Source: Octopus sinensis (Eukaryota). From it: a DNA stretch of 64,000 bases. The translations under genes and the position numbers were made by a program. This document shows positions 14,600 through 51,155 of the stretch, piece by piece. The stretch's first letter is position 1; each line of letters opens with the position of its first letter. The notes under the pieces are model-generated. The model had not been told where the DNA came from. It saw only the letters and a program-made list of their open reading frames with translations, and made no database searches. The stretch lies in the NCBI RefSeq assembly GCF_006345805.1, contig NC_043002.1:106888001-106952000 (forward strand). The letters are read 5' to 3'.

Positions 14600-15095
14600 T
14601 TAGAGAGAAAGAGAAGAAAAACTGTCCACAGTTGTGGAAATTAGCTGTCCAGCGGATGTTAACATAAAGCTGAAGATCAGTGAAAAAGAGAACACCTATG
14701 CTGAACTGTTGAGAAATCTGCAGTTACTCTATCCAGATTACAAATTCAGGTTTATATCTGTAATTATTGGGGCCTTGAGAAATTAGGCTTCTCAAAACCA
14801 GAAAGGAGAAAGCTGATTCGAAGACTACAGATCCAATCCATCACTGGAACTGTAAAATCTGTAAAACTTTTCAGAAGTTTATCATTTAAATATATATGAG
14901 CATGTCTAGATATGCAACTTTATGCATGAAAATACATACATAAAACATACAAATCTACATATACATACATACATATATATATAAAATTACCCTGTTGTTG
15001 GTGTTGAAATTCCAATGAAGGAGCCTTGGATCTAGGTTAGAAACCGGTTCTTTCTCTATTGGCGAGAAATCTTGAAATATACCGAATAATGACAT
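14600..15095 (+). mobile_element. R4/Dong-like (REL-endonuclease) LINE 3' end
   Basis: TVVEISCPADVNIKLKISEKENTYAELLRNLQLLYPDYKFRFISVIIGAL followed by a 3' UTR shared with 5605-6005. Confidence 0.75.
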
Positions 15096-15233
15096 GTATG
15101 TATATTACTCAAAGAAATTCCAATTTTGTATGATTTTCACGTTTTATTTACAATCTTATAATAATATAGTATAAGACATTATTAGGTAATATAATATAAT
15201 GAAATGATACAATATCAAATGTCCGTTCTATTT

Positions 15234-15278
15234 TGAACTAGTACTTTCATGCATTAAACTATGCAATCTTCAGGTTCA
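15234..15278 (-). ncRNA. Minimal type-I hammerhead ribozyme (Penelope-like element type)
   Basis: Minus strand reads UGAAC-CUGAAGA-U-UGCAU-aguuua-AUGCA-U-GAAA-GUAC-UA-GUUCA: 5-bp stem I, intact core, 5-bp stem II, palindromic AGUACU stem III, CUA cleavage triplet. Confidence 0.8.
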
Positions 15279-16029
15279 TGTAGTGGTGACAGTTATGTTT
15301 TACAATTTACAACTGTAGTGAGATGGCTAAACTGTGAGCCTTAAATACATTTGTATAGGCTGCAGAATGTTAATTTTTGCAAACTGTATTCTGACCAATC
15401 AGTGTGTGGCTTTACTAAATTACTTAACCCTTTAGTGTTTAATCCGGCCCAATATATTCTACATGTTTTATATTCAAACTGGCGATATCTAGCCTCTCAC
15501 TCCTAACCTACAATGCCATTCTGAAAATAAGCAATCACATCATTGAAACCTCAAAGCTATAAGATAATGCTTGATTAATTCAAAACAATTTGAGTGAAAA
15601 AGTATTACATTTAACAGAGTAATCTGAACACTAAATTACTTAAGTTGATTGGTTTTTGGTTTAGGCATCACGGTTTCTTGAACATATCAAGAGACCTCTA
15701 TTTTGACCCTGGCCAAAACAGTAATTGTTTGGCTATTTTTTAGAAATGTTGCAACCATTTCCCAAAGATTTTTACATTTCACTTATCATCAACGCCATTA
15801 TAATCTCCTTTATTATCGTCGTCGTTGGTGGTGTTGGTAGGAATAGCCGTGGTTATAGAACTTTAAACCCCAAAAGGAAGATTATTTTTACTGACTTTTC
15901 TCTTGACTCAGCTAGTATTTTCCTGTTATCATCATCATGAGCACCTTTAGTATTGTTGTTGTTGTTGTTAGTAGTAGTAGTGGTCGTAGCAGTAGAAACA
16001 GTACCTCTAAGTATGAGTATTATTGTTTA

Positions 16030-16329
16030 CTAGCAGTATCGCCCGGCGTTGCTCGGGTTTGTAAGGGAAATAACTATATAAGCATTTTTAGAGAGTTACT
16101 TCCCTTATATAATAGCAAAAAAATGCATTAAAAATTGGGAAAAATTTATGGTGTATTTTTTTTTAAATCGTAGACTCATCGTAGACGCGCGCTAATACCC
16201 AGAAGGGCTCGATATGAATCACGACTATAAGATACCCACTTTTGGTTAAACTGCACCGCAAAATGTGGGAGTAGTTAAGAATCTAAATCGTAGGAGACAG
16301 ACACACAACTTCACTTTTATATATAAAGA
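16030..16329 (-). mobile_element. Non-autonomous Helitron
   Basis: Same family; TC...CCCG-agcaacgc-CGGG...CTAG; A^T insertion. Confidence 0.88.
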
Positions 16330-16330
16330 T

Positions 16331-16610
16331 TTAGCTTGACTTGAATTTATTAAGAAAATTCTTTTCCCTGATTTTTCTCTCAATTTCACATGGACTGTGT
16401 AGGTTGCAGAATGGAAATATATTTTCCGACCACATATTGCTAGAAGGTTACTCAAAGGTATCTGACGGACATCTAGATCTCTAATTTGCTGTTGGTACAC
16501 ACGTGAACCTTCTGATAGTGCATTTCCAGTTTGACCTATATATAGTTCTTCACAATTCAGGCATTTGATGCAGTAAATCAAATTTCTGCTACTGCAGTTC
16601 ATATTTGCAT
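16331..16610 (-). mobile_element. Penelope-like element GIY-YIG endonuclease fragment
   Basis: MNCSSRNLIYCIKCLNCEELYIGQTG: xIY...CxxC...YIG motif typical of PLE endonucleases; degenerate downstream; bounded by a SINE and a Helitron. Confidence 0.85.
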
Positions 16611-17006
16611 TTACTCTTTACTCTCTTTTACTTGTTTCAGTCATTTGACTGCGGCCATGCTGGAGCACCGTCTTTAGTCGAGCAAATCGACCCCGGGACT
16701 TATTCTTTGTAAGCCCAGTACTTATTCTAATGGTCTCTTTTGCCGAACCGCTAAGTGACGGGGACGTAAACACACCAGCACCGGTTGTCAAGCAATGCTA
16801 GGGGGACAAACACAGACACACAAACACACACATACATATATACGACAGGCTTCTTTCAGTTTCCGTCTACCAAATCCACTCACAAGGCATTGGTCGGCTC
16901 GGGGCTATAGCAGAAGATACTTGCCCAAGATGCCACGCAGTGGGACTGAACCCGGAACCATGTGGTTGGTTAGCAAGCTACTTACCACATAGCCACTCCT
17001 GCGCCT
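16611..17006 (-). mobile_element. SINE family A, full length
   Basis: Reverse complement of the family A pattern. Confidence 0.9.
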
Positions 17007-18218
17007 ATTTGTGAATATTTCCCTGGTTTTTATGTATATATACTGGCCGTTTATACAAATTGTGATGGAACTTATTTTCGGCAAGAGCATTAAAGAAGAC
17101 CAAACGTAGGATATTTCTGTTAAAAGTACGAGACGATGTGTTTGTTTAATGAATTTGTTAAAATCTCGCAAAATATTGGATCTTTACGAAATTTGGAAAT
17201 TATATTCTATGCATAAAGGCTATAACCCCCATGACAATTCATAAATTTTTGCTGTTGATGAAATTTTAACCATAGATATATTAGACACAAATGAAGTAAT
17301 ATTTATAAAATTTCATCATCTTACAAGTTCACGGGGACTTAACACCCACAATTTAGTCATTTTATCTAAGCAAAGACGAATACAGTTGTACTCTTGGAAG
17401 CTGTAGGATCACCCGAGCATAAAAGATGGGCATTATTCGCTCATTATATTATAGGCACAAGGCCTGAAATTTTGTGGGGAGATGTACCTAATTGATTACA
17501 TGAATACCTATTTCTTTACTACCCACAAGGGGCTAAACACAGAGGGTACAAACAAGGACAGACAAACGGATTAAGTCGATTACATCGACCCCAGTGCGTA
17601 ACTGGTACTTATTTAATCGACCCCGACAGGATGAAAGGCAAAGTCGACCTCGGCGGAATTTGAACTCAGAACGTAACGGCAGACGAAATACGGCTACGCA
17701 TTTCGCCCGGCGTGCTAACGTTTCTGCCAGCTCGCCGCCTTAATTACATGAATACCAGTACTCCACTGGTAGTTACTTCATCGATCCCGAAAGGAAGAAA
17801 GACGAAGTTGACCTCGGTGAGATTGGAACTCAAAGCGTTAAGACGGAAGAAATGGCACCAAAGGCATTTTGTCCAAGGCAGGAACAATTTTGTCAGCTCC
17901 CTTACCTCACGCACTAAACAACACAAAAACTAATCAAACCTCGGATGACTATTTCACTAAAATAATAAAGGGAAGTAACTTATACGTATTTACGGTATTC
18001 TTTTATTCGTTTCAGTCATTTTGAGTACAGCCGCCATGCTGGAGCACCACCTTTAGTCGTACAAATCGACTCAGGACTTATTCTTCGTAAGCCTAATACT
18101 TATTCTATCGGTCACTTTTGCCGAACCGCTAAGATACGGGAACGTAAACACACCAGCATCGGTTGTCAAGCGATGGCGAGGGGACAAACAAAACACACAA
18201 AGTGTGTGTATATATGTT

Positions 18219-23424: not shown

Positions 23425-24015
23425 TTATGTGGGCTCAACTGAAGGTTTTTCTGATTCCTGTCCAGGTAATTCCATTGTAACGTCACTTGATGCTGCAACG
23501 CCCATCATCAACTGATCGTGGGCCAGCATCATTGAGACAACTTGATCATAAGAAGGAGGTAAAGAATCGTAAGGCGGATCAGTTCTTGACAGTGGACAAT
23601 AGATACTCTGTAACACTTCTTGGTAGGAGGGCAGTTCTGCTACGCCAGCTGAAGACCAATTTGTATCAATGTTATTGTGAATAGTCTCTATGTTGTTGCT
23701 TCCATCTTCGACACGATTTCCACCGTTTTCGTCGATCGGACAAACTGTTTCTTCTCTACGTTTTTTCGCGATCAAAAACTGTTTAACTGACACTATCAAC
23801 ATTAGAAATGACAAAAGCAACAGAAACGGACCTGTGATCGATTCCCAGAATATGATATTCCATTCCAACCAGGTGATGATTATTCCCAAAAACAACAAAG
23901 TAACTGAAACTTTTGCAAACATCATTGCAAGTCGGAATTCTTTAATTCCTGGTTCCTGATCCGTGATGTTGTCAGAGGAAACATTCAGCTGGTCGACAAA
24001 TGCCATCGCGTGCAT
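23425..24015 (-). CDS. Intronless 196-aa two-transmembrane protein with C-terminal PY motifs (PIRT/TMEM100/TMEM171-like architecture)
   Basis: ATG-to-TAA ORF in a repeat-free, CpG-retaining block; two hydrophobic helices (the second starts with GP), basic stop-transfer KKRR, then LPSY and PPSY motifs. Confidence 0.85.
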   Translation of the reverse strand: MHAMAFVDQLNVSSDNITDQEPGIKEFRLAMMFAKVSVTLLFLGIIITWLEWNIIFWESITGPFLLLLSFLMLIVSVKQFLIAKKRREETVCPIDENGGNRVEDGSNNIETIHNNIDTNWSSAGVAELPSYQEVLQSIYCPLSRTDPPYDSLPPSYDQVVSMMLAHDQLMMGVAASSDVTMELPGQESEKPSVEPT

Positions 24016-25636
24016 CTTTATCTTCGAGGTTAATATTTCCCTGTCAGGGGGTGCCGATTTCTTTCAAATGAAGGGATAGGTGCCCGTAAATTTATAAATT
24101 TATTCTATTTTTGCCAAACACTTGGCATTCAGAAGTCATTCTTTGAATCAGTTGTTTTACGAGATATTCTCATTGAATATGATACAACAATGAAAGAAAC
24201 GTGTGTGTGTGTATGGATGTGTACATATTTTTTTTTCGTTGATTCAAAACGTTAAATAGCTGCAAAATAGTAAAGTGTTTTGTTTTATTCTACATTTCCA
24301 GGTGGTCCTCGAACAAAATGAAAATTCAGCATTTACATTTTATCACAAATTTCAACTCAGAAAACCTTTTTATTTTCAGGCACCCTTTTTTTTTTTCTTC
24401 AATCTCTTCCGATCATCAATGAGATTTTCATGTCTACAGGAATTCGAAAAAAAAAAAAAAAATTCTTGAAGTTTGTTTTGTTGTTGTTTTTTAAAATCCT
24501 TTGAAGAAATGCGTCCTTAACGCCGACCTCAAACGATGTTCTGACGTCGTCGTCAAAATCTGAAACCTAATTTCTCTTCCTCTCTCACACAACTGCGTTC
24601 GTTTCCGCTCTAATTTCCCAATAAACAGGTCTACTGGCCGAAATACCAACAAACTTGTGTTTAAAAATATGTTAAACAAGTGACTGTTGCAGACGAGTAT
24701 CACCGCTATTTCCAGTTGTATTTCATCTCCACAATTGCCAGAATTATTGAATAACACACACGACATAACAAATAAGTTGTAATGCAAACAAATCCCATTT
24801 TGGCGAAGGTAAAGAATACGCACACCCGGTGTTTAGGGTCAAGGTTTTTGTTTCACCGAAAACGGGTAGTGGTGCATATTCTTTACCTCCGACCCCATTT
24901 TGACACAGCAACTCTTCTCAACGAACGAGGGAACGTCTACAGTAGCTCAACCTGCTAGAAATAACAACCAAATCATACTCTACTGTCTATAAAAAAGAAC
25001 ACGTCGAATCATGCAGTCCTGGTTACAATATTTGGAAATAAACATGGGATGATCAAAAATCTACTCAATCAAGGGTGACCTAGGGCTAAGCAACAAGAAT
25101 TCTTCCTTGCCAATTTTGCTTTCCTTACTTCATAGCAGAAAATATTTTAACATTTCAATAACCGTTTCCTTTTTATTATTTGTTTAATTATGAATATCTT
25201 TTAGAAAAAGAAGAGTACAATTTCAGTTGTAGCAGAAGCATGTTCACTCTTTACCTTTAGGTATCCACATTTATGCCTCTTTACCTTTAGGTACCCGTTT
25301 TGGTTCATCCCTTGATGGTCCAGTCCACCTAGCTTTATGCAGGCTGTCCACCCCTTAACATGATCGACTAGTCAAGCATCCCAACATTAGCTATTTAGGG
25401 GAAGCTTCTCCCCACTAATTCCTTAGAGAGGTGAGTTGCAACAAGTGAGTTTGGATCTTCGACATGAGAGCAGTTTTATTCCATTTTGCTGCTTGAGTGA
25501 GGAGACAATTGTAGCAGGATTCCTTGATGCCATCCACGCTTGGTGTTTTTTTCCAACGTTCATCTTCATCTTTAAGCAGCACTTTGAAATTACAGATTTT
25601 GATAGATTTATCCATGTTATACCAGTCACTGTATTT

Positions 25637-47815: not shown

Positions 47816-48513
47816 CCACCACAACAAAACTGATATTCTAAAACCACCATTGTAATGCATGTCCATGAGGGGCTCTGCCCCATCCACCTTCTCCCACCTA
47901 CATCACATTCCCTAACACCCATCACTTCCTCTATCACTTGAGAGCAGATCAGGCGGGCCCATACTACACCCCTGGTATTATCAGTTACCTTTACTTCCTC
48001 CCCAGTCACCTTTCCCCCTACCTACTGTCTCCAATCACCTCCTTTCTGTCCCTCCTCTGCCCTCCACCATCAACTCCTCATTTACCCAGCTACCACCCTC
48101 AATGCCCTCACACATCTACTACAACCCCTAACCTCAAGTCACTCCTATACTTCTCTCCATTTGATAGTCACCTCATCCTGTCCACTCACCCAACCCAAGC
48201 CTCCATATTACCTCACCTAATCTTACCACCCCCAATGTCCCTCAAGGGCATACCCTGATACATCTCTGCCATCATCACTTTCACTATTACTCTCTTTATC
48301 TTACTCTTTGTTTACTAACTGGGGTATCCATGTTTCTACTCTACAGCAAGACACGACACCAATATCTGTTCCCTCTGTACCTTAAATCTCTCAAATAGCA
48401 CAAAGCCACACACCCTTAATACTACTCCCTGATTTCCCAGTTGGGGAGTTTCTGCTTTGCAAAGTATTCGGTGACCCTGTGGGTGCTGATGCCACATAAA
48501 AAAACACATGAAT

Positions 48514-48834
48514 AAAAAGCATTGGTGATGGTACCACATAAAAAGCACTGGTGATGGTACCACATAAAAAGCACTGGTGATGGTACCACATAAAAAGCAC
48601 TGGCGATGGTACCACATAAAAAGCACTGGCGATGGTACCACATAAAAAGCACTGGCGATGGTACCACATAAAAAGCACTGGCGATGGTACCACATAAAAA
48701 GCACTGGTGATGGTACCACATAAAAAGCACTGGTGATGGTACCACATAAAAAGCACTGGTGATGGTACCACATAAAAAGCACTGGTGATGGTACCACATA
48801 AAAAGCACTGGTTATGGTACTACATAAAAAGCAC
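48514..48834. repeat. 26-bp minisatellite (12 units) inside a family E element
   Basis: tggtgatggtaccacataaaaagcac with period 26 from 48523 to 48809. Confidence 0.95.
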
Positions 48835-51155
48835 CCGATACATTAGGAAGGGAATCTAACTGTAGAAACCATGCCAAAACAGACTCTGGAGCTTGGTGCA
48901 GCTCTCCAGCCTTGCCAGCTCCTGTCAAACCATCCAACCCATGCCAGCATGGAAAATGGACATTAAATGATGATGATCGTCTTTTCTTCACTGCATTCTT
49001 TTTAATTCATTTTTTAACCCTTTAGCATTCGGATTACTCTGCTAAATATTTATTTATTTTGTTTTAATTTAATCCTGCTTTATCTTGTAGCCTTGAGATT
49101 TCGCTTGTGTGATAGTATATTTTTGGAATGGCATTACAGTGTAGGTGTGAGAGACAGGATCTAGCTGGTTTGAACACGAAACGAGTATTTGGGCCAGATC
49201 CGGCCAGTTTAAATGCTAATAATGGGTTTAAGCATTAAAAAGCTACTTTGAAAGAATGCAGCTAACACTGTATAAGTCAATAATATTTTAATTATTTCAA
49301 CTACAGGAGACAACTTCAGACATGTTTTGATCTTATTAGACCTCCTCAGTGAAGCATAGACTTGTGCATGCAGAAATAAAAATGAGAGAACCACTAATTA
49401 AATGTACAATGTAGCAGACAAGAATATGAAATAATTAACAAGCTTAAAATTAGGTACAAACTAACAGAGCATATGAAGGCATCAAATGATCATTTCTTAG
49501 AATTCTGGGTTTTGTAATAAAAACTACTACAACATTCAGTCCCATCTCACAGTAAGCAGTTATCCTGCATGGTCTCCTCTAAGCATGCAACTTAACCAAA
49601 TGTACAAAGCTATTATATCCACAGAGAACATTAGAACTTGGAGGAAAACCCTACCAGTTTGTAGATGAAATACTTGGAATGATAGAATATGGCACTTCTC
49701 TACTTCATCCATTGATTTAATTAGACAAGGCCAGTTGTAGCGATGGAAGATGGGATGATGTCTTGATCAAATGACTTATTCAAAACTTTTATTTAATAAA
49801 CCGTGAAGAGATGAAGGACAAAGTTGAAATCAGTGAAACTTTGAATGAAATACTACAGAGTATTTAGTCCATAATTCATCATCATCATCGTCGTTGTTTA
49901 ACATCTGCTTTCCATGCTGGCATGGGTTGGACGGTTTGACCGAAGATTGGCAAACCAGGAGGCTGCACCAGTCTCCAATCTGATCTGGCAAAGTTTCTAT
50001 AGCTGGATGCTCTTCCTAACACCAACCACTCCCAGAGTGTAGTGGGTGCTTTTACGTGCCACTGGCATGAGGACCAGTCACACGATACTGGCATTAAGGC
50101 AGCAAACTGGCAGAAACGTTAGCACGCCGGGCGAAATGTGTAGCCGTATTTCGCCTGCCGTTACGCTCCGAGTTCAAATTCCGCTGAGGTTGATTAAATA
50201 AGTACCAGTTACGCACTGGAGTCGATATAATCGACTTAATCCGTTTGTCTGTCCTTGTTTGTCCTCTCTGTGTTTAGCCCCTTGAGGGTAGTAAAGAAAT
50301 AGGTACTGGCATTGACCACACTCAAAAAGTGTTTTTTACGTGCTACCTGCACGGGAGCCAGTCCGGCTACACTGGCAACAGCCACGCATGAATGTTGTTT
50401 TTCATGTGCCACCTGCACATGTGCCAGTAAGAAGATGCTGGTAACGATCATGCTCAAATGGTGCTTTTTACGTGCCACCGGCATGGGAGCCAGTCAATGG
50501 CCCTGGCAATGATCGGGCTCAGATGGTGCTTAATGAAAATAATCTATAAAGTATCATTGTGAATGTACTCTTTACCAAATGCCCACAGCTGGTACATTCA
50601 CTGAGAAAAGTTGAAGGACTCAGAGGAGAAAAAGCAGTCCTGCAGTCATTATGTTTCCTAGGAATTCCAAAATTGGTGAGAGGAAAATAAGAAGGGGAAA
50701 AGTCCCACCATTAAAGGGTTGTTAGAGTAGGAATTAGAGTATCAAAATATCGAGTTATCTTTAGACCTGATTTGAATGGTTGCAGAAGCATAGATTCTTC
50801 TAAAAGGTATTTAATAACCAAAGTAGATTAAGTTCACATGCCAAAAACAGGTACACTCCATCCAACATGCTTTCAGTGTAGTTTTCATCAGCCCAACATC
50901 TCTCACAAACTTTGGGTCAATGCAAGGCTACAATTGAAAACATTTGTCCAGAATGCTGCTCAGTGTGAAATAGGACTCAAAATCACATAATTACAAAACG
51001 AAATTCTAAATTAAACAAGTAATTAAGTTATCTAATTTTAAAGCTTATATTTTCAATAGAAAATTGAGAAAAAAGACTATCAAATACACTTGTAAAAATC
51101 TTAATAAATTTCAATGTACTCTTAATAAAAGTACCATCATAAAATAAGCCCTTAC

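What the first reader, a model, noticed from the sequence alone, without database searches (positions are those of the whole stretch)
15234..15278. Compact, intact minimal hammerhead downstream of a Penelope GIY-YIG fragment
Seen: a 45-nt minus-strand motif UGAAC-CUGAAGA-U-UGCAU-aguuua-AUGCA-U-GAAA-GUAC-UA-GUUCA. All catalytic-core nucleotides are present, the closing position of stem II is U-U, and stem III is the self-complementary AGUACU, which cannot close as a monomer and fits dimeric folding. A PLE GIY-YIG relic lies on the same strand about 1 kb upstream (16331-16610), with a Helitron and a MITE in between. Inference: the ribozyme and endonuclease may be remnants of one fragmented Penelope element.
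Basis: partly seen in the sequence, partly recalled or inferred. Interest (0 to 1): 0.75.

Follow-up and report, generated by a model that had tools for sequence, protein, structure and literature searches.

The report
Penelope hammerhead in a shattered copy
This is a real hammerhead-ribozyme motif of a kind already known from Penelope jumping genes, sitting in the tail of one dead, thrice-interrupted copy; the family likely spreads from uncut RNA, and its youngest lineage carries a change in the catalytic core that would weaken cutting.

Summary
Relatives carry the GIY-YIG relic, the 3' UTR and the hammerhead as one piece (11 of 11 loci found by protein). Here that piece is split by a SINE-like repeat, a Helitron and a TTAA-type MITE. 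It is the 3' pseudo-LTR of a 5'-truncated Neptune/Nematis-type Penelope-like element (PLE). The 45-mer's best predicted two-strand fold is the double hammerhead. The U·U closing stem II is fixed in this family and a sister family and is a known natural variant. 'Intact' is not special: 14 of 26 subfamily copies keep the core. PLE hammerheads are published (2014). Side result: copies start at a promoter-like site 41 nt before the ribozyme, hardly ever at the cut site (at most 2 of 100; 0 of 30 in this subfamily). The youngest lineage (337 exact matches; 7 of 8 long-ORF copies fetched) fixed U4C. So cutting is likely not needed for insertion, as shown in vitro for an anole PLE. This scan noted a similar pattern in another genome. 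Cleavage is untested.

The parts
15234..15278 (-). Type I hammerhead motif: stem I 15278-15274/15238-15234, core 15273-15267, U10.1 15266 with U11.1 15249, stem II 15265-15261/15254-15250, GAAA 15248-15245, palindromic stem III 15245-15240, predicted cut 15239^15238
   Evidence: Sequence, folds, pairs kept with other letters in a sister family
15094..15427 (-). Distal part of the PLE pseudo-LTR that holds the hammerhead; ends in an AT-rich microsatellite, without the optional tail
   Evidence: Shared with relatives at 78-95%
15310..15402 (-). Promoter-like motifs of the pLTR: CCAAT box (15402-15391), TATA-like box (15349-15339), initiator-like site near 15314 where family copies pile up their 5' ends
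   Evidence: Motif positions; 5'-end pile-up. Promoter function is inferred
15428..15629 (.). About 200-bp TTAA-target MITE inserted in the pLTR; the terminal repeat at its 15629 end is damaged
   Evidence: Absent from relatives (empty site seen in 3 of 6 relatives checked); 3 further window hits; terminal inverted repeats in another copy. The piggyBac-like label is recalled
15630..16029 (-). Last codons and stop of the PLE ORF (stop about 16022-16020) and 3' UTR/pLTR
   Evidence: Colinear in relatives
16030..16329 (-). 300-bp non-autonomous Helitron-type insertion (TC...CTAG, subterminal hairpin, inserted between A and T, no duplication)
   Evidence: Junctions and 5 further window hits
16330..16612 (-). 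Dead GIY-YIG endonuclease relic: frameshifted, with the conserved Arg and both His of the CCHH motif changed
   Evidence: Translations; tblastn to an intact relative, 67%; relatives' Pfam GIY-YIG hits
16613..17010 (-). High-copy SINE-like repeat inserted into the PLE ORF
   Evidence: 21 window hits; PLE sequence continues on both sides
17008..17049 (-). 5'-most surviving piece of the PLE ORF (between RT and endonuclease); the copy is 5'-truncated near here
   Evidence: 86-88% to intact relatives, 60 hits

Best explanation
The motif is the inherited hammerhead of the 3' pseudo-LTR of an old, dead Penelope-like copy; it would cut only as a dimer, likely weakly, and likely does nothing at this locus, because the family appears to insert from uncut RNA. 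Shown: the single element broken by three insertions; membership of the oldest of four subfamily groups (about 7% from their majority); retention of the fold across families; 5' ends at a promoter-like site rather than the cut site; U4C fixed in the youngest clade. Inferred: in a full-length partial tandem, transcription starts at the initiator 41 nt before the upstream hammerhead and reads through a second hammerhead 4272 nt later. The two could pair through AGUACU and swapped stem I into a double hammerhead. Reverse transcription starts at the pLTR end or tail and copies uncut RNA back to its 5' end. The window copy has no partner hammerhead in the 64 kb, so any cut would need a partner transcript in trans.
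For: Linkage. Dimer: the co-fold optimum of two 45-mers is exactly the double hammerhead, -18.0 vs -11.8 kcal/mol for two monomers; forcing stem III in the monomer costs about 4.8 kcal/mol. Uncut template: 16 of 47 copies examined start 75-95 nt before the anchor (initiator about 84) and 2 start within 4 nt of the cut site. The other 53 of the first 100 listed carry the whole motif (searches compared by eye). In the window's own subfamily, 0 of 30 start at the cut site and 10 of 30 near the initiator. U4C: 337 exact matches; one nested clade, 100/98 support; median divergence 1.4% vs 2.2-2.3% and 7.3%. Literature: metazoan PLE hammerheads cut poorly and only as dimers (PMC4209133); anole PLE inserts from unprocessed RNA and hammerhead mutants do not affect insertion (PMC11167929); U4C lowers activity considerably (PMC3088659). 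No special protection here: 14 of 26 subfamily copies keep the core.
Against: The motif is not drifting freely over long times. It differs less than its flanks among 30 copies picked by a downstream anchor (5.6% vs 8.9-9.6%, p 1.5e-4; core alone p 0.053), and the sister family keeps core and pairing with other letters. So it has had a selected role, possibly cutting that removes or circularises RNA without leaving 5' ends. With flanks added, the window homodimer's best fold is not the double hammerhead. Only 1 of 26 copies is identical to the window over all 44 nt. U4C was still enough for viroid infectivity (PMC3088659), so the young lineage may still cut. No RNA ends could be examined.
Confidence: 0.72

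Rival explanations
1. The hammerhead is an active processing ribozyme of the family: it cuts tandem transcripts to unit length as a protein-assisted dimer, and the product is circularised before copying, so cut-site 5' ends never show; U4C only tunes the rate.
For: Tandem hammerheads 4272 nt apart; dimer fold; conservation above flanks; compensatory pairs between families. Circularisation was proposed in PMC4209133, and protein-assisted cutting was shown in PMC11167929.
Against: 5' ends pile at the initiator-like site, which a closed circle would not mark. The youngest lineage carries U4C and has lost the outer stem II pair.
Confidence: 0.17
2. This particular copy is kept by the host, for instance as a cleavage element in a same-strand host transcript, or as a trans-acting enzyme strand against young-element RNA.
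For: Zero changes in 44 nt against 7.2% divergence of the copy overall. Promoter-like motifs retained. A window/young heterodimer folds as a double hammerhead, -17.5 kcal/mol. A TMEM51-like frame lies on the same strand 8 kb upstream.
Against: No orthologous locus was available to test constraint.
Confidence: 0.07
3. The motif is a chance match, or unrelated to the GIY-YIG relic.
For: No Rfam hit; unremarkable monomer energy; a loose core pattern is matched by chance in this genome (76 vs 58 control).
Against: Hundreds of exact copies against 0 control; physical linkage in relatives; covariation between families.
Confidence: 0.01

Closest known systems
Type I hammerheads in pLTRs of metazoan Penelope-like elements (Cervera and De la Pena 2014, PMC4209133; read parts 1-2 of 4 of the main text, no supplements), in particular the variants with a small palindromic helix III
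   Same: Position in the pLTR, short stem I, palindromic stem III that needs a dimer, mostly solitary copies in truncated elements
   Different: U10.1·U11.1 in place of the usual G10.1-C11.1, fixed across two families; no separate extra nucleotide after A9 if the U·U is counted as 10.1/11.1; youngest lineage has U4C
Neptune/Nematis clades of endonuclease-bearing PLEs (Craig et al. 2021, PMC8557442; passages seen)
   Same: RT followed by a CX4CX2C linker and a GIY-YIG domain with CCHH; partial tandem and inverted copies; 30-nt optional tail; (TA)n targets
   Different: Clade not placed on a tree here; an N-terminal frame of about 430 aa appears out of frame with RT in most assembled copies (unresolved)
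PAc, the Poseidon PLE of the green anole (PMC11167929; passages and second part of the main text seen)
   Same: Two classes of 3' end, with and without an AC-rich tail; copies appear made from uncut RNA
   Different: There shown in vitro, and the hammerhead overlaps the start codon; here seen as a genomic footprint, and the hammerhead lies about 245 nt before the start codon
Natural core variants U10.1-U11.1 and U4C (Perreault et al. 2011, PMC3088659; section 8 and passages seen)
   Same: Both variants are described; U·U is the best-tolerated mismatch at that pair, and U4C lowers activity considerably
   Different: Reported there as rare variants (U4C in a viroid), not as fixed states of whole transposon lineages

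Membership tests
PLE-associated type I hammerhead | Conserved core C3 U4 G5 A6 N7 G8 A9 / G12 A13 A14, A15.1-U16.1, H17 | tested here: met
PLE-associated type I hammerhead | Stems I and II in type I order, pairing kept across families | tested here: met
   91.5% of cells paired vs 22-57% for slid controls (25 copies that I picked). Only two between-family changes are independent (G-C/A-U in stem I, A-U/G-C in stem II); the rest can be CpG decay
PLE-associated type I hammerhead | G10.1-C11.1 closing pair of stem II (consensus, not absolute) | tested here: not met
   U·U; U11.1 in 62 of 67 window-subfamily matches, also the commonest state in the sister family; known natural variant
PLE-associated type I hammerhead | Lies in the pLTR of a PLE | tested here: met
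PLE-associated type I hammerhead | Self-cleavage (as a dimer) | not testable with these tools
   Fold prediction only; no raw RNA reads
Strict min-HHR (no helix III/loop 3) | Absence of helix III | tested here: not met
   GUAC lies between A15.1 and U16.1; this is the small-palindromic-helix-III variant of PMC4209133
Neptune/Nematis EN+ PLE | RT with C-terminal GIY-YIG in one frame | tested here: met
   In relatives L043 and L045 (RVT_1 scores below Pfam's cut-off, GIY-YIG above it in L045); the window copy keeps only the endonuclease end
Neptune/Nematis EN+ PLE | CX2-5CxxC linker and CCHH motif | tested here: met
   Read in relatives' translations against the definition in PMC8557442; both His lost in the window relic
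Neptune/Nematis EN+ PLE | Partial-tandem and inverted copies, optional tail, (TA)n targets | tested here: met
Neptune/Nematis EN+ PLE | Placement in the Neptune clade by RT phylogeny | not tested
Non-LTR retrozyme | Short non-coding tandem units, each with a hammerhead | tested here: not met
   Single motif in the window; tandem period in relatives is the whole 4272-nt coding element
Non-autonomous Helitron (insert 16030-16329) | TC start, CTAG end, subterminal hairpin, A|T insertion without duplication (features recalled) | tested here: met

The most novel reading that the evidence does not exclude
The youngest lineage of this family escaped its own ribozyme by fixing U4C, and old core-intact copies such as this one, still carrying promoter motifs and the shared AGUACU and stem I, act as trans-cleaving enzyme strands on the young element's RNA: a fossil-ribozyme brake on an active transposon.
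Probability: 0.07. Interest if true: 0.75.

Novelty: new member of a known kind. Interest (0 to 1): 0.3.

Why it matters
The locus itself is an ordinary relic of a published kind. Its family is a small natural experiment on an open question: what PLE hammerheads are for. One lineage ladder holds a canonical core (old) and a U4C core (young, several hundred copies, most of the long-ORF copies fetched). The 5' ends of copies record an uncut template in both. This matches the in vitro result for the anole PLE, and it gives matched natural RNAs for a direct cleavage comparison.

Tried and rejected
Rfam scan: no hammerhead hit. RNA evidence: no RNA holder listed, only contigs of runs whose type is a guess. 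Laying them cannot show ends, strand or expression; three guessed-RNA runs had next to no cover over the window's hammerhead, which proves nothing, and both U4 and C4 letters appear in another organism's run. First divergence estimate and tree were spoiled by non-homologous flanks of truncated copies and were redone on homologous columns (67 of 104 copies long enough for the tree; copies identical over 250 nt were collapsed, which inflates the young group's divergence). The lower variation of the hammerhead was set aside because those copies were chosen by similarity to it; one search repeats the test on copies chosen by a downstream anchor. A programmed frameshift between the N-terminal frame and RT could not be settled: spacing differs among copies through homopolymer indels and no downstream structure was predicted. 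Retrozyme reading rejected (no short tandem units). Luense et al. on dimer-cleaving PLE hammerhead variants is not held; I saw only its citation and a review's summary, so it, and supplements that I did not open, may already list U·U or U4C PLE variants. Searches for prior description; none showed this family or a U4C PLE lineage in listings or the passages read. bioRxiv 10.64898/2026.07.22.740005 and PMC3846280: passages only.

Full report
Observation. The 45-nt motif is at 15278-15234 on the minus strand exactly as written. It has the whole hammerhead core, a 5-bp stem I, a 5-bp stem II closed by U·U, and AGUACU between A15.1 and U16.1; the predicted cut is 15239^15238. It is the only full type I descriptor hit in the window, and 5 of 200 simulated windows gave any hit. 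Rfam found no hammerhead and the monomer energy is ordinary, so the case rests on the family.

It is one broken Penelope-like element. The region is a repeat in the 2.7-Gb animal genome G000 (1038 candidates). In 7 of 29 loci found with the hammerhead region, and in 11 of 11 loci found with the endonuclease relic, window segments 16612-16329, 16029-15630 and 15427-15094 follow each other without the insertions. The inserts are a 300-bp Helitron-type element at 16030-16329 and a TTAA-target MITE at 15428-15629. The relic is dead: frameshifted, with the conserved Arg and both His changed. Full-length relatives have 770-777 aa frames with RT and C-terminal GIY-YIG, a CX4CX2C linker and a CCHH motif. 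They also show partial tandems of period 4272 nt, inverted pairs, an optional 30-nt AC-rich tail and (TA)n targets. These are the marks of Neptune/Nematis PLEs as defined in PMC8557442 (passages); I did not place the family on a reference tree.

The fold. Two 45-mers co-fold best as the double hammerhead, with a 6-bp intermolecular stem III and swapped stems I: -18.0 kcal/mol against -11.8 for two monomers. With about 40 nt of leader and 30 nt of trailer, the window homodimer prefers another pairing, so the dimer is possible, not assured. A sister family (125 exact matches, control 0) keeps core, U·U and GUAC, with G-C to A-U in stem I and A-U to G-C in stem II. The tool's other 'both-side' changes can come from CpG decay and should not be counted. 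U11.1 is present in 62 of 67 window-subfamily matches. The U·U is therefore a lineage trait, and it is a described natural variant (PMC3088659, section 8). By the terms of PMC4209133 (parts 1-2 read) the motif is the small-palindromic-helix-III variant rather than a strict min-HHR.

Is this copy special? It belongs to the oldest group (7.2% from its majority). Among 30 copies chosen by an anchor downstream of the hammerhead, 26 span it; 14 keep all 11 core positions and 1 is identical over 44 nt. The motif varies less than its flanks (5.6% vs 8.9-9.6%, p 1.5e-4; core alone p 0.053). I read this as constraint on source elements, not on this insertion. An unchanged 44-mer is expected in about 8% of copies.

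What the family records. First, 5' ends. Short copies pile up at an initiator-like site 41 nt before the hammerhead, about 30 nt below a TATA-like box. Of 47 copies examined from the first 100 listed by a downstream anchor, 16 start there (75-95 nt before the anchor) and 2 within 4 nt of the cut site. The other 53 carry the full motif (lists compared by eye). In the window's subfamily the figures are 10 of 30 and 0 of 30. Copied RNA therefore usually still held the uncut hammerhead. Second, the core. There are 541 exact U4-type and 337 exact C4-type matches. The C4 copies form one nested clade (100/98; 23 C4 plus one likely CpG revertant). They are the least diverged (median 1.4% vs 2.2-2.3% and 7.3% in pattern-sampled copies) and make up 7 of the 8 copies with frames over 730 aa that I chose to fetch. 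U4C lowers activity considerably in vitro, though it still allowed viroid infectivity (PMC3088659).

Mechanism. Inferred: transcription starts at the pLTR initiator and runs through hammerhead, ORF and the next pLTR. The element's protein nicks AT-rich DNA and starts reverse transcription at the pLTR end or tail. Copying from the first site gives the short initiator-to-tail copies; copying from the second gives long, variably truncated ones like the window's. This follows the anole PLE, where unprocessed RNA is the dominant template, hammerhead mutants insert normally and cutting needs protein (PMC11167929). Cutting, if any, would be weak and dimeric (PMC4209133). The window copy has no partner in 64 kb. 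The main rival is protein-assisted cutting with circularisation, which the long-term conservation keeps alive but the initiator pile-up argues against. No RNA ends could be read.

Verdict. It is a new member of a known kind. The added value lies in the family-level footprint of an uncut template and the fixed U4C. I had reached both before looking up earlier notes; a note on another genome reports a like pattern (unchecked). Seven paper searches did not show this family, but one key paper on PLE hammerhead variants was not held. Interest 0.3.

Noticed in passing
L109, L045-L050, L055 (G000; e.g. L109:5055-6400): Young full-length copies have an N-terminal frame of about 430 aa with no Pfam match that overlaps the RT frame by about 30 codons. 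Spacing to the RT anchor was 113 nt in 4, 112 in 4, 114 in 1 and unread in 2 of 11 copies, across A and T runs: either a programmed frameshift or assembly errors.
   Followed up: partly
L177-L179, L197-L211: A sister PLE family (125 exact pattern matches, control 0) with a shorter stem II hairpin, the same U·U and the same GUAC palindrome; one decayed copy lies behind an RT-GIY-YIG piece about 50% identical to this family.
   Followed up: yes
L171, L175, L176, L188-L191: A third hammerhead family with the canonical extra nucleotide and G10.1-C11.1 pair, the same GUAC stem III and a GGACCA/UGGCC stem I; no RT found in the flanks fetched.
   Followed up: partly
L116; L117: Copies with the young loop but U4. 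U4C creates a CpG, so deamination can restore the canonical core; L116 nests inside the C4 clade.
   Followed up: partly
L109:9037-9152: The young lineage's loop II has become palindromic, and its predicted homodimer with flanks is a long duplex through stem-loop II rather than a double hammerhead.
   Followed up: partly
L059, L072, L084, L117 and others: Many short copies are head-to-head inverted pairs joined at the initiator-like site about 41 nt before the hammerhead.
   Followed up: partly
window 23428-24063, minus: 212-aa open frame with two hydrophobic stretches and PPxY-like motifs, weak Pfam TMEM51 match (E 2e-4, below cut-off); likely a host exon on the same strand as the hammerhead, 8 kb upstream.
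   Followed up: partly
window 15617-15630 and 15414-15427: The MITE is flanked by a 14-bp direct repeat instead of a plain TTAA duplication; the first bases of one terminal repeat are overwritten by flank sequence.
   Followed up: no
window 48460-48927 and 168-482: Minisatellites of period 26 and 35 bp.
   Followed up: no
L002 (G000:C9035): A near twin of the window's pLTR (95-96%), with the first few bases of the MITE junction but not the MITE body; possibly an allele, a haplotig or a duplication.
   Followed up: no
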